From the IMG/VR virus record IMGVR_UViG_2619619131_000020, positions 1-8,517 of that record: a DNA stretch of 8,517 bases, one strand, 5' to 3'. This document shows positions 1 through 8,517 of this stretch, piece after piece. Source of the DNA: a virus (Duplodnaviria > Heunggongvirae > Uroviricota > Caudoviricetes). A program made the translations under genes and the position numbers. Below the pieces are notes generated by a model. That model was not told the origin of the DNA and searched no databases. It worked only from the letters and a program-made list of their open reading frames with translations. The first letter of the stretch is position 1. Every line of letters begins with the position of its first letter.

Positions 1-1513
<1,513 letters not shown>

Positions 1514-2255: not shown

Positions 2256-2999
2256 ATGACACAGACTGAATCAGCGATTCTGGCGCATGCCCGGCGGTGT
2301 GCGCCTGCGGAGTCGTGCGGCTTCGTGATAAGCACGCCGGAGGGGGAGTGGTATATCCCTTGTGTGAATATTTCTGCAGAGCCGGAGGCGTATTTTCGTA
2401 TCGCACCGGAAGACTGGCTGCGGGCAGAGATGCAGGGGGAGATTGTGGCACTGGTCCACAGTCATCCCGGTGGGCTGCCCTGGCTGAGCGAGGCTGACCG
2501 GCGGCTGCAGATAAAAAGCGCACTGCCCTGGTGGCTGGTCTGCCGGGGTGACATTCACAAATTCCGCTGTGTGCCACATCTGACAGGACGGCGCTTTGAG
2601 CACGGGGTGACGGACTGTTACACGCTGTTTCGGGATGCTTATCATCTGGCGGGGACTGAAATGCCGGATTTTCATCGCGAGGATGACTGGTGGCGCAACG
2701 GTCAGAACCTTTACCTGGACAATATGGCGGTCACAGGCTTTTACCGGGTGCCCCTGTCCTCTGCACAGGCGGGCGATATTCTGCTGTGCTGCTTTGGTGC
2801 TTCGGTACCGAACCATGCCGCCATTTACTGCGGCAACGGTGAGCTGCTTCACCATCTGCCTGAACAACTGAGTAAACGGGAGAGGTATTCCGAAAAATGG
2901 CAACGACGAACGCATTCTGTCTGGCGTCACCGCCACTGGCACGCATCTGCCTTCACGGGGATTTACAACGATTTGGCCGCCGCCTCAGCCTGTATGTGA
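2256..2999 (+). CDS. K: Tail tip assembly protein K (lambda gpK-like) with JAB/MPN and NlpC/P60 domain motifs
   Basis: The translation starts MTQTESAILAHARRCAPAESCGFV. A JAMM-type motif HSHPGGLPWLSEAD (H-x-H-x7-S-x2-D) is visible directly, as are NlpC/P60-type catalytic residues (Cys in GVTDCYTLF, His in VPNHAAIY). The start was chosen at the first ATG after the L stop, in frame with ORF 1995-2999. Confidence 0.85.
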   Translation: MTQTESAILAHARRCAPAESCGFVISTPEGEWYIPCVNISAEPEAYFRIAPEDWLRAEMQGEIVALVHSHPGGLPWLSEADRRLQIKSALPWWLVCRGDIHKFRCVPHLTGRRFEHGVTDCYTLFRDAYHLAGTEMPDFHREDDWWRNGQNLYLDNMAVTGFYRVPLSSAQAGDILLCCFGASVPNHAAIYCGNGELLHHLPEQLSKRERYSEKWQRRTHSVWRHRHWHASAFTGIYNDLAAASACM

Positions 3000-3532
3000 A
3001 CACGGCAGCGGAAGCCATTCGCGCCCTGTCGATGCAGATGCCGGGCTTTCGCCGTCAGATGAACGAAGGCTGGTACCAGATACGTATTGCCGGTGATGAC
3101 ACGGCACCGGAGGCGGTGTATGCCCGTCTTACGTCCTTCAGTTATGCCAATGCTGAGGATGAGCAAAAAACGCGCTACAGAGATACCCGCTGGCATGAAG
3201 ATTCCGTGCGTAACCGCTGGTTCAGCGTGATGGCGGGGCCGTCTGTACGCGTGAATGAATGGTTCAGCGCGTATGCGATGGCGGGTGTGGCTTACAGCCG
3301 TGTGTCGACTTTCTCCGGGGATTATCTCCGCGTAACTGACAACAAGGGGAAAACGCACGACGTGCTGACCGGAAGTGATGACGGTTGCCACAGCAACACG
3401 TCTCTGGCGTGGGGGGCTGGCGTGCAGTTTAACCCGACCGAATCCGTGGCCATTGATATTGCTTATGAAGGCTCCGGCAGTGGTGACTGGCGCACTGACG
3501 GTTTCATCGTGGGTATCGGTTATAAATTCTGA
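2897..3532 (+). pseudogene. In-frame chimera: N-terminal ~70 codons of tail assembly protein I fused to the C-terminal ~130 codons of outer-membrane protein Lom; J and the Lom signal peptide are missing
   Basis: N-terminus MATTNAFCLASPPLARICLHGDLQRFGRRL...WYQIRIAGDD resembles the lambda gpI N-terminus. From ~nt 3130 the translation SFSYANAEDEQKTRYRDTRWHEDSVRNRWFSVMAGPSVRVNEWFSAYAMAGVAYSRV...DGFIVGIGYKF matches the Lom/Ail-family beta-barrel C-terminus ending in aromatic F. No J-like ORF (expected >1000 codons) lies between. Confidence 0.7.
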
Positions 3533-3596: not shown

Positions 3597-4811
3597 ATGG
3601 CAGTAAAGATTTCAGGTGTGCTGAAGGATGGTACAGGAAAACCGGTACCGGACTGCACCATAGAGCTGAAAGCCACGCGAACGAGTGAGACGGTGATAGT
3701 CACCACGGTGGCGCAGGGGCAGCCGGGGGAAACCGGCAGTTACAGTTTTGATGTGGAGCCGGGGTGGTACCGGGTGACGCTGAACACGGAAGGGTACGCC
3801 CCGTCGTATGTGGGTGACATTCTGGTGAAGGCGGATTCTGAGCCGGGAACGCTGAATAAATTTCTGATGGAACAGGATGAGGTGCAGTATTACCCGAAAG
3901 CGCTTGCAGAGCTGGAAGCGGTGGCAGCGGAAATCCTGAAGCGTGCTGAAGCGTCGGCGGCGAGTGCAGAGGAAGCGAAGGAACGGGCAGAGAATGCCCG
4001 GGGACCGGCGGGCGAGAAGGGGGACACAGGTCCACAGGGTGCCACAGGGGCACAGGGACCAGCCGGGGCAACGGGGGCGGTCGGACCAAAAGGTGAGCCG
4101 GGGCCAAAGGGAGAACGGGGAGAAACAGGTCCACAGGGACCGAAGGGCGATAAAGGTGACCCGGGCGGACCGCCGGGGCCGAAAGGGGATACGGGAGACA
4201 CAGGCCCGGCAGGACCACAGGGGCCGAAGGGAGATACGGGAGACACAGGCCCGGCAGGACCACAGGGGCCGAAGGGAGATACGGGAGACACAGGCCCGGC
4301 AGGTCCGCAGGGACCGAAGGGAGATACGGGAGACACAGGCCCGGCAGGACCACAGGGACCGAAGGGAGATACGGGAGACACAGGCCCGGCAGGACCACAG
4401 GGACCTAAAGGGGATGCGGGAGCTGCAGGCCCGGCAGGGCCACAGGGACCGAAGGGAGATACGGGAGACACAGGCCCGGCAGGACCACAGGGACCGAAGG
4501 GAGATACGGGAGACACAGGTCCGGCAGGACCTCAGGGACCGTCAGGAAGTCCTGACAGCGGACTGTTTGGTGTCGGTTCTTTTGTCCTTGCGGCATATTA
4601 TGCGACGAGTTATTCGGGGGATATGGCACCGGGCTCAGCCATTGCCGGCTCATCACTGTCTGCATGTTGCCTTTCGAATGGTACTCCCCTGGTTGCTTCC
4701 GGTAATGTGGGGGAGACCCGTTTACCGGGCACGTGGCGTGCATGTGGTCCGATGCTATGGACATCATCTCCGGGTATCAGACAGGCAGGATTATTTCAGC
4801 GCATATCATAG
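3597..4811 (+). CDS. stf: Side tail fibre protein (lambda Stf-like N-terminus, collagen-like Gly-X-Y shaft, distinct C-terminal domain)
   Basis: N-terminus [26 protein letters not shown] resembles the lambda Stf N-terminus. Codons ~136-320 are uninterrupted G-X-Y triplets ([13 protein letters not shown]...[15 protein letters not shown] repeated). The C-terminal ~90 aa are non-collagenous ([19 protein letters not shown]...GTWRACGPM...LFQRIS). Start taken at ATG 3597 rather than the in-frame GTG 3591; stop TAG 4809-4811. Confidence 0.8.
4179..4538 (+). repeat. Eight tandem copies of a 45-bp unit (CCGAAGGGAGATACGGGAGACACAGGCCCGGCAGGACCACAGGGR) encoding [15 protein letters not shown] inside stf
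   Basis: Direct reading: units begin at 4179, 4224, 4269, 4314, 4359, 4404, 4449 and 4494. Five are near-identical; the units at 4269, 4404 and 4494 carry a few substitutions. The period is a multiple of 3, so the reading frame is preserved. Confidence 0.85.
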
Positions 4812-4819
4812 AGGAGGTC

Positions 4820-5428
4820 ATGGTGGATAAGGGAAAAGAGATTCTTGCAGTACGAAATGCAGCCAGCAACGAATATGGCGGGATAAACTGTGAGGTGCAG
4901 TTTGAAGACGCGGTGAATGAAAAAGGGGAACAGGTATGGCTGCCGTATACTGCAACGGAAACGGATAATACAGAACACGGAAAAGCATTGTGGTCTGGGC
5001 TGACAGCAGGAACGTACGGAAGTGTGAGTGCCTTTGTCGCCACGGAAGCAGTACTGGAAGCGGCAAAAGCGGCGAAAAGGGAAGAGATTAATATCTGGCG
5101 TGATGTGCAGGAGAATATGGAATACATGATGGAATTCAACGGAAGGAACTGGGATTACGGCAAGAAGACGTTGTCCAGGATAAGCATGACACGCCTGATG
5201 GCAGAGAATAACCGTCTTCCGGAAGGTTTTGCTTGGACCGACGGGGATAATAATGTGGTGCCGGTGACGGCGGCAGACATCATAGCCCTGTCGGATGCGA
5301 CAGAGCAGGCGATGTTTGCGAAGGGGGTGGAGATTAATACACGGCAGTTGCAGATGAAAGCAGAGGTTGAGGCGCTGACAGAGCTGAAGGCGATCCGCAG
5401 TTACGTTGTTGGATGGCCTGCTGGCTGA
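4820..5428 (+). CDS. Putative tail fibre assembly / chaperone protein (DUF4376-like C-terminus), translationally coupled to stf
   Basis: A strong Shine-Dalgarno GAGGAGG at 4811-4817 lies directly after the stf stop, with ATG at 4820 (GTG 4823 is an alternative). The C-terminal block FAWTDGDNNVVPVTAADIIALSDATEQAMFAKGVEINTRQLQMKAEVEALTELKAIRSY fits the pattern I associate with DUF4376 fibre-associated proteins. It is not similar to lambda Tfa. Confidence 0.55.
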   Translation: MVDKGKEILAVRNAASNEYGGINCEVQFEDAVNEKGEQVWLPYTATETDNTEHGKALWSGLTAGTYGSVSAFVATEAVLEAAKAAKREEINIWRDVQENMEYMMEFNGRNWDYGKKTLSRISMTRLMAENNRLPEGFAWTDGDNNVVPVTAADIIALSDATEQAMFAKGVEINTRQLQMKAEVEALTELKAIRSYVVGWPAG

Positions 5429-5569: not shown

Positions 5570-5895
5570 TCAGATTTTTGGAAATCCATATTTTTCCCGT
5601 GCGCGATTACATGCTTCATTTACGATGCTATTTTCGCCGGACATTGCGAATTCCCTGCATGTGGACGGTTTTTGTAAACAGAGCAATATGCGTTTTCTCC
5701 GGGGGGGGCCGGCAAGAGCGCCACATCGGGGATTTTTCTGATTGGTGCCGCGCATACAGCGATGAAAAGGAGATATTTGCTCAGTGAGACTGACCGAAAC
5801 CTTTCCGCCAGCATCGTCAGCTTCTGCCCAGTAAAAAGAGACGCGGAAAATGCACAACAGGCACCACACGTCATGCATGGATTCAGATTGCTCAT
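5570..5895 (-). pseudogene. YkgJ-family (CxxCxxCC, putative zinc/iron-chelating domain) gene interrupted by three frame changes
   Basis: Two overlapping minus-strand ORFs (5620-5895 and 5570-5902) each carry pieces of one family pattern. Frame a gives the N-terminal [10 protein letters not shown] and later CSVYKNRP; frame b gives [15 protein letters not shown]...[27 protein letters not shown] and the C-terminal [27 protein letters not shown]. Switch points coincide with homopolymer runs at plus-strand 5847-5850, 5701-5708 and 5669-5673. Family assignment is from memory of the motif pattern. Confidence 0.5.
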
Positions 5896-6115
5896 AATTC
5901 ACCAGTACAGCTATAAATCGTAAAGAGAACAGCGGTACATCGTATGTAAGAACGTACCGCGGCTGGCTGGTGAACTTCCGATAGTGCGAGTATTGAATGA
6001 TTTCCAGCCGTTACCGATTTTACTATGTTTTAGTAGAACACTTAGACAAAACTGAGACACACAAAGCTTTGTACTGGATTGCTAGGCTTTGTGCTATTCG
6101 ATAGTTTAAGGTCGC

Positions 6116-7273
6116 TCACTCTACCTTTTCATCAAGCCAGTCCGCCCACCACTGCATCATTTCTCTGCGCTTATCGAGATACTGTGCATGGTTGTAAATC
6201 CCGCGCACAGATCCGCCGTTGGCATGTGCAAGTTGCACTTCAATGGCGTCGGCAGGCCATTCGTGCTCGTTCATAATCGTGCTGAATTCATGCCTGAATC
6301 CGTGACCGCTTTCCAGACCTTCATAGCCGATTTGTTTGATCACAAGCAGTACAGCGTTCTCGCAAATTGGCTTCTTCTTATCGTTGCGCCCGGCAAAAAC
6401 AAACTCTGATACTGGTTTGGTGATTGAGCTTAGCATAGTGAGAAGTTCAACTACCTGGTCTGACATAGGAACCACATGAATTTTGCGTCCCTTCATCACA
6501 TTGGCGTCGATGGTGATAATCCTGTTTTCAAAATCGACGTTCTTCCATAGCATGGAACGAAGCTCTTTTGTTCTGAGGGCTGTGTAGCGTAAAACTTTGG
6601 TCGCAATGAGCGATACGATGCTTCCTGAAAATGTTGCCAGTGCTTTGTTAAATGCCGGGATCTGGTCTGCAGGAAGAAACGGGAAGTTTTTCTTGCGGTA
6701 TCCCTTCATGGCGTCAGCAAGGTCAGGTGCCGGGTTATATTTAGCCCTACCAGTAACAATAGCGTAACGGAAAACCTCGCCGCATCTTCTGCGGGCTTTA
6801 TTTGCTCTCTCCATTGCACCGCGATCTTCAAATCTGCGGATTACTTCCAGCAGTTGCATCGGCTCAATATCCTGAATTTCAAGGCCGCCGATGATAGGTA
6901 AAATGTCGTCATCAAACATTTTTGCAAGTTCAGTCGCATACCCTACTGACCATACTTGCTTCTTGTGCTCGTACCATTCCTTGTAAATCGCACTAAAGGA
7001 ATTGTTGTTAGACGAAGCCTTTTTCGCCTTTACCGGATCGATGCCAACCGAGATGTCTTTCCTCGCAGTCCATGCCTTATCCCTTGCCTCCTGCAAAGTC
7101 ATTAGCGGATATTTTCCTACGGTCAGGATTTTCTCCTTACCGTCAATCTTGTAGCGAAGCTGCCATACCTTTTTCCCTGACACAGGGACATAAAGGTACA
7201 GGCCATTACCATCGAGTAGGCGGTATGGTTTTTCTTTCGGCTTTGCTGCTTCAATCTGCTTAACGGTGAGCAT
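6116..7273 (-). CDS. intS: Tyrosine-type site-specific integrase (CPS-53 IntS-like), 385 aa
   Basis: Translation MLTVKQIEAAKPKEKPYRLLDGNGLYLYVPVSGKKVWQLRYKIDGKEKILTVGKYPL... has the C-terminal catalytic signature HGFRHEF (H-x-x-R) and a conserved Tyr in GIYNHAQY. It lies next to tRNA-Arg and yfdC, as IntS does in E. coli K-12. Start taken at ATG 7273 (385 aa) rather than the upstream in-frame GTG 7309. Confidence 0.88.
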   Translation of the reverse strand: MLTVKQIEAAKPKEKPYRLLDGNGLYLYVPVSGKKVWQLRYKIDGKEKILTVGKYPLMTLQEARDKAWTARKDISVGIDPVKAKKASSNNNSFSAIYKEWYEHKKQVWSVGYATELAKMFDDDILPIIGGLEIQDIEPMQLLEVIRRFEDRGAMERANKARRRCGEVFRYAIVTGRAKYNPAPDLADAMKGYRKKNFPFLPADQIPAFNKALATFSGSIVSLIATKVLRYTALRTKELRSMLWKNVDFENRIITIDANVMKGRKIHVVPMSDQVVELLTMLSSITKPVSEFVFAGRNDKKKPICENAVLLVIKQIGYEGLESGHGFRHEFSTIMNEHEWPADAIEVQLAHANGGSVRGIYNHAQYLDKRREMMQWWADWLDEKVE

Positions 7274-7318
7274 GGGTAAAAATCCGGTGGGTAAAATTAT
7301 TTTATCCACTTTTTACCC
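7274..7318 (-). promoter_or_regulatory. Cluster of three GGGTAAAA motifs in the int leader, candidate operator or arm-type sites
   Basis: Direct copies of GGGTAAAA at 7274-7281 and 7289-7296, plus an inverted copy TTTTACCC at 7311-7318; the first copy abuts the int ATG. Function is inferred only. Confidence 0.25.
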
Positions 7319-7434: not shown

Positions 7435-7509
7435 TGGTGTCCCCTGCAGGAATCGAACCTGCAATTAGCCCTTAGGAGGGGCTCGTTATATCCATTTAAC
7501 TAAGAGGAC
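7435..7509 (-). tRNA. argW: tRNA-Arg (anticodon CCU), argW
   Basis: The reverse complement of 7435-7509 is GTCCTCTTAGTTAAATGGATATAACGAGCCCCTCCTAAGGGCTAATTGCAGGTTCGATTCCTGCAGGGGACACCA (75 nt). It has a 7-bp acceptor stem (GTCCTCT/AGGGGAC), anticodon loop CTCCTAA with anticodon CCT, T-loop GGTTCGATTCC and an encoded CCA end. Confidence 0.95.
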
Positions 7510-7584: not shown

Positions 7585-8517
7585 TTATGCCGGGTTTTTA
7601 TAATTTTTCTTAATGTTTTCCGCACGTTCTGCTTTTTGGCGTGCTTCTGCTTTACGCTTATTGCTCATGTCGTTACGAATCTGTGCATGACTCATTAACG
7701 CGAAGATAAAGGTGCCGCCGCAGATGTTCCCCGCTAAAGTAGGTAGTGCGAAGGGCCAGATGAAATCGCTCCAGTGCAGCGTACCGTTAAACACCAGATA
7801 GAGGATTTCAACAGAACCGACCACGATATGGGTGGTGTCACCCAGGGCAATAAGCCAGGTCATCAATATAATCACCACAATCTTTGCCGCACCCGCTGCA
7901 GGAAACATCCAAACCATAGTGGCGATCAGCCAGCCGGAAATGATCGCGTTGGCAAACATCTCGCTGGGGGTGTTCTTCATCACATCCATGCCGATTTTGA
8001 CAAATGCATCGCGAGTTTCTTCATTGAAGATAGGCATATATTCAAATGCCCACGCCGCAATACCTGTCCCGAGAATATTACCCAGCAGCACGACGCCCCA
8101 TAACCGTATAAGTAAGCCGACGTTGCTCATTGTCGGTTTTTGCATGACGGGTAGTACCGCAGTCACGGTATTTTCGGTAAATAATTGCTGGCGGGCCATA
8201 ATGACGATAATAAAACCAAAGGTATAACCGAGATTCTCCAGCAAGAAGCTGCCCGGCACACCTTCCAGTTCGACTTGAAATATCCCTTTTGCCAGTAACG
8301 AAGCGCCCATCGACAGACCCGCCGCAATGGCTGACCACAGTAGCGCCATTGCGTCGCGTTCCAGCTCTTTTTCACCATCCTGGCGGATATGCTCATGAAT
8401 TGCCATCGCCCGGGAGGGGAGTCGGTCTTCATCTATTTCTATTTTTTTGCCGCGCTCTTTTTCTTCGCTCTCAACTTCAATTTCGTCGCTGTGTTGATCA
8501 ATTTTGTCGTTGTCCAT
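7585..8517 (-). CDS. yfdC: Formate/nitrite transporter family inner-membrane protein YfdC, 310 aa
   Basis: The 310-aa translation MDNDKIDQHSDEIEVESEEKERGKKIEIDEDRLPS... is followed by multiple hydrophobic transmembrane segments, consistent with E. coli YfdC. Its position next to argW fits the K-12 gene order yfdC-argW-intS. The start codon is the last three bases of the window, so an upstream extension cannot be excluded. Confidence 0.88.
   Translation of the reverse strand: MDNDKIDQHSDEIEVESEEKERGKKIEIDEDRLPSRAMAIHEHIRQDGEKELERDAMALLWSAIAAGLSMGASLLAKGIFQVELEGVPGSFLLENLGYTFGFIIVIMARQQLFTENTVTAVLPVMQKPTMSNVGLLIRLWGVVLLGNILGTGIAAWAFEYMPIFNEETRDAFVKIGMDVMKNTPSEMFANAIISGWLIATMVWMFPAAGAAKIVVIILMTWLIALGDTTHIVVGSVEILYLVFNGTLHWSDFIWPFALPTLAGNICGGTFIFALMSHAQIRNDMSNKRKAEARQKAERAENIKKNYKNPA

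What the first reader, a model, noticed from the sequence alone, without database searches (positions are those of the whole stretch)
4179..4538. Eight 45-bp tandem repeats encoding the collagen-like shaft
Near-perfect tandem units with an in-frame period (15 codons) are prone to slipped-strand or recombinational expansion and contraction. Copy number, and hence fibre length, is likely to vary between isolates without breaking the frame. High repeat identity suggests recent expansion, and this region is also liable to collapse in short-read assemblies.
Basis: seen in the sequence. Interest (0 to 1): 0.5.

Follow-up and report, generated by a model that had tools for sequence, protein, structure and literature searches.

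The report
Variable collagen repeats in prophage fibre
The eight 45-base repeats are real and encode most of the collagen-like shaft of a lambda-type prophage side tail fibre; their number does differ between otherwise near-identical E. coli prophages, but this protein family and its variable collagen length are already described, so the finding is correct and ordinary.

Summary
Confirmed and correctly interpreted, but not new. Window 4179-4538 holds exactly eight in-frame 45-bp units. Seven encode [15 protein letters not shown]; unit 6 encodes [15 protein letters not shown]. They lie in a 404-aa gene (3597-4811, +) with a lambda-Stf-like N-terminal collar domain, a short Ala/Glu coiled coil, a 184-residue Gly-X-Y domain and an 85-aa C-terminal domain. 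This matches the published "EPcl" prophage collagen-like tail-fibre family (Ghosh 2012). The C-terminus is about 94% identical to EC55989_1078, listed there as EPclC*. The seven same-peptide units differ only at synonymous sites (2.1 nt on average, against 8.5 expected from the peptide alone), so the units were duplicated or homogenised recently. Alleles whose non-repeat parts (855 nt) differ by 0-5 nt carry 6, 7, 8 or 10 units in four complete E. coli genomes, all at the same potB site. Viral contigs carry 12 units. Short contigs carry 1 unit. The window and its 8-unit relative are identical outside the array but arranged differently inside it. Edge units are constant and interior units turn over, as expected for unequal recombination or slippage. 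Each unit should add about 4.3 nm of shaft (inferred). The window's prophage is a dead remnant: capsid, tail tube, tape measure and J are deleted.

The parts
3597..4811 (+). Side tail fibre gene, 404 aa plus stop. The ORF is open from GTG 3591; ATG 3597 is the start used in RefSeq relatives.
   Evidence: ORF list. Pfam phage_tail_N and Collagen. PHROG tail fibre families. An identical 404-aa gene call on the source contig. The homologous CDS in L001 is 6007-7221.
3597..3878 (+). N-terminal collar (tail-attachment) domain, aa 1-94, homologous to lambda gpStf residues 1-94.
   Evidence: phmmer against PDB: 9e7m_Ta 'Tail fiber protein', E=8.5e-30, query residues 1-91. In Ur-lambda, 12 copies of this domain form a collar at the gpV/gpM junction and carry four trimeric fibres (PMC12617516). 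Pfam PF08400, E=3.6e-42.
3879..4001 (+). Short Ala/Glu-rich linker or coiled-coil segment, aa 95-135 (13 Ala and 9 Glu in 41 residues). It is the counterpart of the 'PCoil' region of EPcl proteins.
   Evidence: Composition. PCoil is described in PMC3368898. No coiled-coil predictor was run.
4002..4553 (+). Whole collagen-like (Gly-X-Y) domain, aa 136-319, 184 residues, about 53 nm if a triple helix at 0.288 nm per residue.
   Evidence: Gly-X-Y runs at 136-192 and 194-319. Pfam Collagen matches four stretches. Strongest PDB sequence matches are collagens. Rise per residue from PMC3368898. Arithmetic.
4134..4178 (+). Degenerate 'unit 0' ([15 protein letters not shown]). It contains the single break in the Gly-X-Y register, GDPGGPPG (4155-4178, aa 187-194).
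   Evidence: [quoted passage not shown]
4179..4538 (+). The finding: eight tandem in-frame 45-bp units (aa 195-314), 65% of the collagen domain. The unit map is a b i e e h e f.
4404..4448 (+). Divergent unit 6 (type h, [15 protein letters not shown]), 8 nt different from the consensus unit. The same unit sits at the same position in the 8-unit allele of L001 and in the 12-unit alleles.
4554..4808 (+). C-terminal non-collagen domain, aa 320-404, ending GLFQRIS. It is presumed to be the distal trimerisation and receptor-binding knob.
   Evidence: About 94% identical to the C-terminus of EC55989_1078. 48% identical to the C-terminus of the 688-aa fibre P0033. Invariant G/W/GLFQR positions in alignment A1. 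No Pfam family. The AlphaFold2 model is all-beta with pLDDT 69 and has no PDB fold match.
4820..5428 (+). Downstream DUF4376 gene (202 aa). ATG 4820 is preceded by AGAGGAGG. It is the conserved partner of this fibre type and a presumed fibre accessory or assembly protein.
   Evidence: Pfam DUF4376, E=1.4e-16. PHROG 1141 'tail fiber protein', E=1.7e-79. It is adjacent to the fibre gene in 12 of the 14 complete-genome loci examined (L001-L003, L005, L007-L014, L019); in L006 a 170-aa hypothetical gene intervenes and only a partial DUF4376 pseudogene remains. Start context.

Best explanation
The repeats are an in-frame coding minisatellite. It forms about two thirds of the collagen triple-helix shaft of a lambda-Stf-type side tail fibre, a member of the published EPcl family and closest to its EPclC* form.

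The protein is expected to trimerise. Its N-terminal domains clamp onto the tail as a collar. The Gly-X-Y region winds into a rigid triple helix. The 85-aa C-terminal domain sits at the far end as a trimerisation and receptor-binding knob.

Because the 45-bp units are nearly identical at the DNA level, they misalign during replication or homologous recombination. Misalignment can occur within one array or between fibre genes of different prophages. Whole units, or blocks of up to four units, are gained, lost or homogenised while the reading frame and the Gly-X-Y register are kept. Each unit should change shaft length by about 4.3 nm, giving roughly 44-70 nm for 6-12 units.

Shown here: the repeat structure, the domain homologies, the copy-number and arrangement polymorphism among near-identical alleles, and the recent common origin of the units. 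Inferred: triple-helix formation by this protein, the length effect, any effect on adsorption or host range, and which misalignment pathway acts.
For: Repeat anatomy.

Recent common origin of the units: the seven same-peptide units differ only at synonymous sites, 2.14 nt on average against 8.5 +/- 0.5 expected, with 0 of 5000 resamples as low.

Fibre identity:
- PF08400 and Collagen.
- Residues 1-91 match the Ur-lambda Stf collar domain in PDB 9E7M, E=8.5e-30.
- PHROG tail-fibre families.
- In intact relatives the gene lies directly after J and lom.
- The C-terminus and the unit type are shared with EC55989_1078, which Ghosh 2012 lists as EPclC*.
- The GDPGGPPG interruption matches the family's conserved motif.
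- Homologous EPclA was shown experimentally to be a trimer with a collagen triple helix and a dumbbell shape about 50 nm long (PMC3368898).

Length polymorphism, as unit maps:
- L003: a b c d e f (6 units)
- L002: a b b c d e f (7)
- L001: a b c g e h e f (8)
- window: a b i e e h e f (8)
- L005: a b c g b b c d e f (10)
- L020, L022, L025: a b c g b b c g e h e f (12)

The non-repeat 855 nt of the gene differ by 0-5 nt among the window and L001, L002, L003 and L005. The window and L001 have 0 differences. L002 and L005 have 1 difference yet carry 7 and 10 units. The first and last units are the same in every full-length allele, and unit i is a hybrid of a b/e-type 5' part and a g-type 3' part. 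That is the expected signature of unequal exchange. A sister lineage at five other insertion sites has 6-11 units. Protein database relatives have 1-8 units.
Against: No direct measurement exists of triple-helix formation, fibre length or adsorption for this protein.

The sequencing technology behind the 'complete' genomes could not be checked, so some copy numbers could carry assembly error. The window itself comes from a draft assembly contig.

Three IMG/VR contigs share one identical 12-unit map, so the array is not hypermutable on very short timescales.

The window's prophage has lost its capsid, tail-tube, tape-measure and J genes. This particular copy therefore cannot be used by its own element, and its repeat number may now be selectively neutral.

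The C-terminal domain has no characterised homologue, so its receptor-binding role is assumed from position only.
Confidence: 0.88

Rival explanations
1. The copy number in the window (and perhaps in some relatives) is an assembly artefact. The true array is longer or shorter and the apparent polymorphism is technical.
For: The window is from a draft contig that starts inside the prophage. One IMG/VR contig ends inside the array and another carries small indels in two units. The 1-unit alleles come only from 1-2 kb contigs.
Against: The longest exact repeat within 4100-4600 is 77 nt. Distinctive units (a, i, h, f) anchor the array, so ordinary paired 100-250-nt reads can resolve it. An 8-unit allele with identical flanks exists in a complete chromosome. 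Four complete chromosomes give four different in-frame maps that are related by simple whole-unit events. The 1-unit junctions share only 17 nt, too short for k-mer collapse, and one of them recurs in three independent samples.
Confidence: 0.07
2. The units are old. They look alike only because selection keeps the peptide [15 protein letters not shown], and there is no ongoing expansion or contraction.
For: Seven units encode the same peptide. Related lineages keep the same 15-residue pattern.
Against: Synonymous sites are also nearly identical: 2.14 against 8.5 expected differences, with 0 of 5000 resamples as low. Copy number and unit order differ among alleles with 0-5 flank substitutions.
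Confidence: 0.02
3. The gene is a bacterial surface collagen-like adhesin or virulence factor (Scl/Lcl type) carried as prophage cargo, not a virion fibre.
For: The best NCBIfam hits are the collagen-like adhesins Lcl, SclB and SclA. Lcl also carries a copy-number-variable collagen repeat whose length changes adhesion (PMC6460258). The gene is intact although its prophage is dead.
Against: All NCBIfam scores are far below the curated cut-offs (164 against 500, 128 against 325, 105 against 400) and cover only the Gly-X-Y part. The N-terminus is the Stf collar domain that binds the phage tail. No cell-wall anchor motif is seen in the sequence, and no family search matched an export signal or anchor domain; no signal-peptide predictor was run. 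The position after J and lom in intact prophages is that of stf. The non-repeat parts are identical to the copy in an intact prophage, so intactness here says nothing about selection.
Confidence: 0.03
4. This is a rival on mechanism only. The variation comes mainly from recombination between different fibre genes (paralogous prophages in one cell, or incoming phages), with the collagen repeats acting as shared joints. Replication slippage within one array contributes little.
For: L005 reads as an L001-like 5' part (a b c g) joined to an L002-like 3' part (b b c d e f). In L006 the first four units are of this type and the array then switches to another unit type and a different C-terminal domain. 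P0011, P0016, P0017 and P0059 are identical over the first ~200 aa and diverge inside unit 1. Many genomes match only the 5' part up to gene position 596-623, or only the part from position 536-586 onward. E. coli genomes hold a median of 2 and up to 17 matching places. Collagen-like repeats have been proposed as phage recombination hotspots (discussion in PMC7242381).
Against: The single-unit duplication in L002 relative to L003, with 3 flank differences and 0 differences in 1100 nt downstream, is equally well explained by slippage. No Chi site lies in the window. The two pathways leave the same products, so these data cannot separate them.
Confidence: 0.45

Closest known systems
EPcl proteins: EHEC prophage collagen-like tail-fibre proteins (Ghosh et al. 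2012, PLoS One 7:e37872; PMC3368898), especially the EPclC* example EC55989_1078
   Same: Same order of parts: PF08400 N-terminal domain, Ala/Glu/Ser-rich coil, Gly-X-Y domain, C-terminal domain. [quoted passage not shown] Same position in lambdoid prophage tail modules. The C-terminal domain is about 94% identical to EC55989_1078, and the 15-residue PKGD-G--GPAGPQG units are shared. The paper already notes that collagen-domain lengths vary in multiples of three residues.
   Different: The coil is short (about 41 aa against 116) and the collagen domain is longer (184 against 140 aa in EC55989_1078). The C-terminus is not the PfC domain (PF06820) of EPclA and EPclB. The 45-bp unit structure and the unit-by-unit turnover were not described in the parts of that paper I read.
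Bacteriophage lambda side tail fibre Stf (Ur-lambda; PDB 9E7M; PMC12617516)
   Same: Homologous N-terminal collar domain (E=8.5e-30, residues 1-91). Same gene position after J and lom. Presumably the same trimeric fibre attached at the gpV/gpM junction and used for fast initial adsorption.
   Different: The lambda Stf shaft is described as coiled-coil with a gp37-like distal part that binds OmpC, and Stf is paired with Tfa. Here the shaft is collagen-like, the distal domain is unrelated, and the downstream gene is DUF4376.
Legionella pneumophila Lcl collagen-like adhesin
   Same: Tandem collagen-like repeats whose number is polymorphic among isolates. Repeat number changes the protein's properties: binding and triple-helix signal rise with repeat number (PMC6460258). 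Lcl is the best NCBIfam hit for the collagen part.
   Different: Lcl is a secreted bacterial adhesin, not a virion part. Its flanking domains are unrelated. The score of 164 is far below the family cut-off of 500.
Bacillus anthracis BclA exosporium filament
   Same: A trimeric collagen-like stalk with a C-terminal knob. From my own knowledge (Sylvestre et al. 2003, J Bacteriol), polymorphism in the length of its collagen-like region sets filament length, which is the same length logic as proposed here. There is a weak sequence match to PDB 1WCK (E=6.6e-07) in the Gly-X-Y part only.
   Different: BclA is a spore surface protein. Its repeat units differ, and its C-terminal domain is C1q/TNF-like and unrelated to the one here. 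The AlphaFold2 model of the C-terminus found no PDB match.
Collagen-like repeats in other viral attachment genes (Streptococcus thermophilus phage antireceptors; Guarani virophage ORF8)
   Same: Collagen-like repeats separate the domains of host-recognition proteins. Spontaneous deletion of repeats accompanied a host-range change in Guarani, and such repeats have been proposed as recombination hotspots (PMC5601072; PMC7242381).
   Different: The proteins and hosts are unrelated and the unit lengths differ (27 nt in Guarani). No host-range data exist for the fibre studied here.

Membership tests
EPcl prophage collagen-like tail-fibre proteins (Ghosh 2012) | N-terminal PfN domain (Pfam PF08400, phage_tail_N) | tested here: met
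   E=3.6e-42, residues 3-136, full-length match to the profile.
EPcl prophage collagen-like tail-fibre proteins (Ghosh 2012) | One or more (Gly-X-Y)n collagen domains (PF01391) | tested here: met
   E=3.3e-28 over four stretches. Gly-X-Y runs at 136-192 and 194-319.
EPcl prophage collagen-like tail-fibre proteins (Ghosh 2012) | [quoted passage not shown] | tested here: met
   GDPGGPPG at aa 187-194 (window 4155-4178). The motif is quoted from the paper.
EPcl prophage collagen-like tail-fibre proteins (Ghosh 2012) | Low-complexity Ala/Ser/Glu coiled-coil (PCoil) between PfN and the collagen domain | tested here: inconclusive
   A 41-aa Ala/Glu-rich segment is present (13 Ala, 9 Glu). It is much shorter than the 88-116 aa of listed members, and no coiled-coil prediction was run. 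The paper says PCoil is often missing in EPclC.
EPcl prophage collagen-like tail-fibre proteins (Ghosh 2012) | C-terminal domain: PfC (PF06820) for types A and B; a different, non-PfC C-terminus for types C and D | tested here: met
   No PF06820 match even at E<=10, so it is not type A or B. The C-terminus is about 94% identical to that of EC55989_1078 (467 aa), which the paper lists as EPclC*.
EPcl prophage collagen-like tail-fibre proteins (Ghosh 2012) | Encoded in the tail module of a lambdoid prophage | tested here: met
   L, K, I, [J], lom, fibre, DUF4376 in the window and in L001-L003.
EPcl prophage collagen-like tail-fibre proteins (Ghosh 2012) | Forms a trimer with a thermally stable collagen triple helix | not testable with these tools
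   Shown experimentally only for EPclA and EPclB.
Lambda Stf-type side tail fibre | N-terminal collar domain homologous to gpStf residues 1-94 | tested here: met
   9e7m_Ta, E=8.5e-30, residues 1-91. Structure described.
Lambda Stf-type side tail fibre | gp37-like distal receptor-binding region and a downstream Tfa-type assembly chaperone | tested here: not met
   No such Pfam or PHROG match. The downstream gene is DUF4376. The protein therefore attaches like Stf but is not an Stf orthologue over its full length.
Bacterial collagen-like surface adhesins (Lcl, Scl1/SclA, Scl2/SclB) | Whole-protein score above the NCBIfam cut-off; secretion signal or LPXTG anchor | tested here: not met
   164 against 500, 128 against 325, 105 against 400, with matches confined to the Gly-X-Y region. 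The N-terminus is a phage collar domain.
Coding minisatellite / variable-number tandem repeat | Head-to-tail units whose length is a multiple of three and whose DNA identity exceeds what peptide constraint requires | tested here: met
Coding minisatellite / variable-number tandem repeat | Copy-number polymorphism among otherwise near-identical alleles | tested here: met
   6, 7, 8, 8 (different order), 10 and 12 units. The alleles with 6-10 units (window, L001, L002, L003, L005) have 0-5 differences in 855 flanking nt; the flanks of the 12-unit alleles were not compared.
Coding minisatellite / variable-number tandem repeat | Measured mutation rate and pathway (slippage or RecA-dependent exchange) | not testable with these tools
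   Needs experiments or pedigreed isolates.

The most novel reading that the evidence does not exclude
The array is a selected, fast-evolving adaptor rather than a passive polymorphism. Whole-unit changes tune how far the side fibre reaches (about 4.3 nm per unit; 1-12 units seen) to match the thickness of the O-antigen or capsule layer of available hosts. The shared PKGD...GPQG units also serve as the joint at which distal receptor-binding modules are swapped between co-resident prophages. The mosaic breakpoints seen exactly in unit 1 and inside the array fit this. Nothing here tests the effect of length on adsorption.
Probability: 0.2. Interest if true: 0.45.

Novelty: already known. Interest (0 to 1): 0.17.

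Why it matters
The practical value is modest.

(1) Anyone typing or assembling E. coli or Shigella prophages should expect this gene to differ in length between strains and to break short-read contigs. Apparent "different" fibre proteins can be the same allele with another unit count.

(2) The locus offers a clean natural series: 6, 7, 8, 10 and 12 units on near-identical backgrounds. It could be used to test whether collagen-shaft length affects adsorption or host range of lambdoid phages, including Shiga-toxin phage relatives.

(3) It illustrates concerted evolution in a coding minisatellite, with stable edge units and a churning interior.

None of this changes current understanding. The family, its triple-helical nature and its variable collagen length were published in 2012.

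Tried and rejected
1. Whole-window megablast. No phage record and no complete E. coli genome covers 80% or more of the window, because the window's prophage carries three internal deletions and sits at another chromosomal site. The comparison was therefore done at gene level.

2. Pfam on the C-terminal 89 aa at E<=10 gave nothing. PHROGs gave only marginal hits, E about 1e-3.

3. tblastn of the C-terminal 94 aa against 50,697 phage records gave no match at E<=1e-5. This distal domain is so far seen only in prophages and viral contigs.

4. An AlphaFold2 model of the C-terminal domain from a 7-sequence alignment gave a small all-beta fold of moderate confidence (pLDDT 69.4). Foldseek against the PDB gave no match better than E=3.8. 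No functional inference was drawn from it.

5. An exact-sequence cluster look-up did not find the window protein in the clustered collection, although the contig look-up did find it.

6. I considered whether the 1-unit alleles P0004 and P0005 are collapsed assemblies. The junction sequences argue against simple k-mer collapse, but the contigs are short and of low coverage. These alleles are reported as probable, not certain.

7. A Chi-site search (GCTGGTGG) in the window found no sites.

8. Rejected: programmed on/off phase variation, because the unit is a multiple of three and all alleles are in frame. Also rejected: the long ORFs on the opposite strand and in the +1 frame across the array (3700-4398 -, 3890-4516 -, 3943-4830 +). 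They are by-products of stop-free GC-rich repeats.

It was rerun without that row.
Full report
**1. The observation**

Reading the sequence and cutting it in 45-nt steps from 4179 gives eight units ending at 4538. All are in the frame of the ORF that runs to the stop at 4809-4811.
- Units 1-5, 7 and 8 encode [15 protein letters not shown].
- Unit 6 (4404-4448) encodes [15 protein letters not shown].
- Tandem Repeats Finder reports the same array: 4160-4541, period 45, 8.5 copies, 91% matches, no indels, score 617.
- The extra half copy is a degenerate "unit 0" at 4134-4178 ([15 protein letters not shown]).
- Units 4, 5 and 7 are identical. The seven same-peptide units differ pairwise by 0-5 nt, always at third codon positions. 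Unit 6 differs from the others by 7-10 nt.

This is more than a collagen-coding sequence would show by itself. I re-drew synonymous codons for the same peptides from the gene's own codon usage. Unit pairs then differed by 8.5 +/- 0.5 nt (minimum 5.95 in 5000 draws), against 2.14 observed. The units therefore share recent DNA ancestry or are being homogenised.

**2. What the gene is**

The ORF is 3597-4811 (ATG), open from GTG 3591, and encodes 404 aa.
- Pfam finds the prophage tail-fibre N-terminal domain PF08400 (E=3.6e-42) and Collagen (E=3.3e-28). PHROGs assigns tail-fibre families.
- Against solved structures, residues 1-91 match chain Ta of 9E7M, "Tail fiber protein", at E=8.5e-30.
- That entry is the Ur-lambda virion. 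There, residues 1-94 of the side fibre Stf form a 12-copy collar at the gpV/gpM junction that carries four trimeric side fibres, and these make first contact with the cell (PMC12617516).
- After this domain comes a 41-aa Ala/Glu-rich segment.
- Next come 184 residues of Gly-X-Y (aa 136-319) with one register break, GDPGGPPG (aa 187-194).
- The protein ends with an 85-aa non-collagen C-terminus, GLFQRIS.
- The array is aa 195-314, so it supplies 120 of the 184 collagen residues.

In intact relatives the gene follows L, K, I, J and lom and is usually followed by a DUF4376 gene. This is the stf position of lambda.

**3. Relation to what is published**

Ghosh et al. 2012 (PMC3368898) described the "EPcl" prophage collagen-like proteins of pathogenic E. 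coli.
- Their architecture is PF08400 domain, coiled coil, collagen domain(s) and a C-terminal domain.
- EPclA was shown experimentally to be trimeric, with a collagen triple helix and a dumbbell shape about 50 nm long.
- The authors state that collagen-domain lengths vary between copies in multiples of three residues.
[quoted passage not shown] That motif is present here.

The window protein lacks the PfC domain of types A and B. I fetched EC55989_1078, the 467-aa example listed as EPclC* in their Table 3. Its C-terminal domain is about 94% identical to the window's, and it contains the same kind of 15-residue units. The protein is therefore a member of a described family, with a shorter coil and a longer collagen domain than that example.

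**4. Does copy number vary?**

Megablast of the gene against 5,426 complete E. coli genomes found few close alleles. I fetched them and read their arrays. Giving each distinct 45-mer a letter, the alleles at the same insertion site next to potB are:

| Source | Strain or contigs | Units | Unit map |
|---|---|---|---|
| L003 | 2017.17.03CC | 6 | a b c d e f |
| L002 | PS2Canimalfeces12 | 7 | a b b c d e f |
| L001 | S1-CAM-01-A | 8 | a b c g e h e f |
| Window | GCA_000704665.1 | 8 | a b i e e h e f |
| L005 | JNEC-KY204 | 10 | a b c g b b c d e f |
| L020, L022, L025 | three IMG/VR contigs | 12 | a b c g b b c g e h e f |

Outside the array, the 582 nt upstream and 273 nt downstream within the gene differ by only 0-5 nt among the window, L001, L002, L003 and L005.
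- The window and L001 have 0 differences there, yet their arrays differ by at least two unit-level events.
- L002 and L005 have 1 difference, yet carry 7 and 10 units.
- The first unit (a) and last unit (f) are the same in every full-length allele, while the interior changes.
- Unit i is a hybrid of a b/e-type 5' part and a g-type 3' part.
- The 10- and 12-unit alleles contain four-unit (180-bp) block insertions.

These are the classic marks of unequal exchange or slippage in a tandem array.

A sister lineage with PKGDTGA(A/T)GPAGPQG units sits at five other chromosomal sites and has 6-11 units. Protein-database relatives range from 1 to 8 units. The prediction is borne out. All variants keep the frame and the Gly-X-Y register.

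**5. Caveats on the census**

- I could not check which sequencing technology underlies each "complete" genome.
- The window is positions 3-8519 of a draft contig (JNRL01000022.1 of GCA_000704665.1). However, the longest exact repeat in 4100-4600 is 77 nt, and four distinctive units anchor the array, so its eight units are resolvable with ordinary reads.
- Evidence that the array troubles assemblers exists but is thin. Contig L021 ends inside the array after at least nine units, and L026 has small indels in two units.
- The 1-unit alleles (P0004, P0005) come from 1-2 kb contigs, one at 3.5x coverage. Their junctions share only 17 nt with the parental arrangement, and one recurs in three independent samples. 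They are probably real deletions rather than k-mer collapses.
- Three contigs share an identical 12-unit map, so the array is variable but not wildly unstable.

**6. How it most likely works**

Shown:
- the repeat structure;
- the recent common origin of the units;
- homology of the N-terminus to a structurally defined tail collar;
- family membership;
- copy-number and order polymorphism on near-identical backgrounds.

Inferred from homologues and collagen geometry:
- Three chains trimerise, and the Gly-X-Y region forms a triple helix of about 0.288 nm per residue (value from PMC3368898).
- The whole shaft is then about 53 nm here, the array about 35 nm and each unit about 4.3 nm. On the same arithmetic, 6-12 units give roughly 44-70 nm.
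- The C-terminal domain would be the distal trimerisation and receptor-binding knob.

Which misalignment pathway acts is open.
- Recombination between different fibre genes is plausible. L005 looks like an L001-type 5' part joined to an L002-type 3' part.
- L006 switches unit type and C-terminal domain inside the array.
- Several proteins are identical to the window protein for about 200 aa and diverge inside unit 1.
- Genomes carry a median of 2 and up to 17 matching places.
- The single-unit duplication in L002 is equally compatible with slippage.
- No Chi site is present in the window.

**7. Context in the window**

This copy sits in a dead prophage. Compared with intact relatives (L027 and L001), three deletions of about 4.2-4.5 kb are present.
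- The first fuses the portal N-half to an FII-like gene (junction 1117-1122). It removes the protease, decoration, major capsid and FI genes.
- The second (junction 1371-1386) removes the tail-tube genes, G/T, the tape measure and part of M.
- The third (junction 3129-3133, 5-bp overlap) fuses I to lom and removes all of J.

The fibre gene cannot serve its own element. Its non-repeat parts are identical to those of an intact prophage, so the decay is recent and says nothing about selection on the fibre.

Homology to the potB-site prophage ends at 5895. An IntS-type integrase (6116-7309, -), tRNA-Arg(CCU) (7435-7509, -) and yfdC (7585-8517, -) follow.

**8. Things that led nowhere**

- The C-terminal domain has no Pfam family.
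- It has no tblastn match in 50,697 phage records.
- Its moderate-confidence all-beta AlphaFold2 model (pLDDT 69) has no PDB fold match.
- NCBIfam's best hits are the collagen-like adhesins Lcl, SclB and SclA. They score far below the cut-offs and cover only the Gly-X-Y part.

**9. Verdict**

The object is an allele of a described protein family whose variable collagen length is already in the literature. Analogous copy-number-variable collagen repeats are well known: Legionella Lcl (PMC6460258), Bacillus BclA (from my own knowledge), and collagen-like repeats in other viral attachment proteins (PMC7242381; PMC5601072). Interest is low. The only mildly novel, untested reading is that shaft length is actively tuned to the host surface and that the array doubles as a module-swapping joint.

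Noticed in passing
window 1117-1122, 1371-1386 and 3129-3133: There are three internal deletions of similar size (about 4.2, 4.4 and 4.5 kb) relative to intact lambdoid prophages. They create a portal::FII-like fusion ORF (491-1513) and an I::Lom fusion ORF (2897-3532). They remove the capsid, tail-tube, tape-measure and J genes. Two junctions have 5-6 bp overlaps. The prophage is a dead remnant.
   Followed up: yes
window 4179-4223 (unit 1); proteins P0011, P0016, P0017, P0059; locus L006 2507-3958: Mosaic joints coincide with the array. Several fibres are identical to the window protein for about 200 aa, up to ...[14 protein letters not shown], and then switch to other collagen, Pf2 and C-terminal modules. 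L006 keeps four units of this type and then changes unit type and C-terminal domain. Many genomes match only the gene's 5' part up to position 596-623, or only the part from 536-586 onward. The repeats may act as recombination joints for swapping distal modules.
   Followed up: partly
L023 (IMGVR_UViG_2529292910_000010), reverse strand, about 1000-1160: The N-terminal part of a J gene is fused directly into the collagen array (...KQCY | GRHRP.., out of frame), leaving three units. This is another decaying prophage, and its deletion endpoint lies inside the repeat.
   Followed up: no
L021 (contig end at 6430) and L026 11130-11185: One IMG/VR contig stops inside the array after at least nine units. 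Another has small indels that garble two units (PGAKRGYGSQAAG). This is consistent with assembly or sequencing trouble in the repeat.
   Followed up: partly
L016, L017, L018 (protein P0005, 286 aa) compared with window 4134-4538: This allele has a single unit and also lacks the 13-aa segment [13 protein letters not shown], so it has no Gly-X-Y interruption. The junction lies in a 17-nt string (CCACAGGGACCGAAGGG) shared by unit 0 and the array. The allele is seen in three independent samples, but only on 1.1-1.9 kb contigs.
   Followed up: partly
window 4554-4808: The 85-aa C-terminal domain has no Pfam family, no hit in 50,697 deposited phage genomes and no PDB fold match. It does share invariant G/W/GLFQR positions with the C-termini of other collagen-like prophage fibres (alignment A1). 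It is a widespread but uncharacterised distal fibre domain.
   Followed up: partly
window 4733-5428: The start of the DUF4376 gene is annotated inconsistently in relatives. Some records use a start that overlaps the fibre gene by 55 nt (equivalent to ATG 4757). Others use a start just after the fibre stop. ATG 4820 has a strong AGAGGAGG ribosome-binding site 8 nt after the fibre stop and is the likelier start.
   Followed up: partly
window 5570-6116: A YkgJ-family cysteine-cluster gene (5570-5902, -) ends the homology with the potB-site prophages at 5895. About 200 nt later the IntS integrase, argW and yfdC block begins. The same tail-fibre end therefore lies at potB in four complete genomes but next to intS and argW here. 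The arrangement was not resolved: tandem elements, or an integrase at the fibre end.
   Followed up: no
window 3700-4398 (-), 3890-4516 (-), 3943-4830 (+): Long ORFs of 208-295 aa on the opposite strand and in another frame run through the collagen region. They translate to repetitive Pro/Gly- or Arg-rich strings and are by-products of the stop-free GC-rich repeat, not genes.
   Followed up: no
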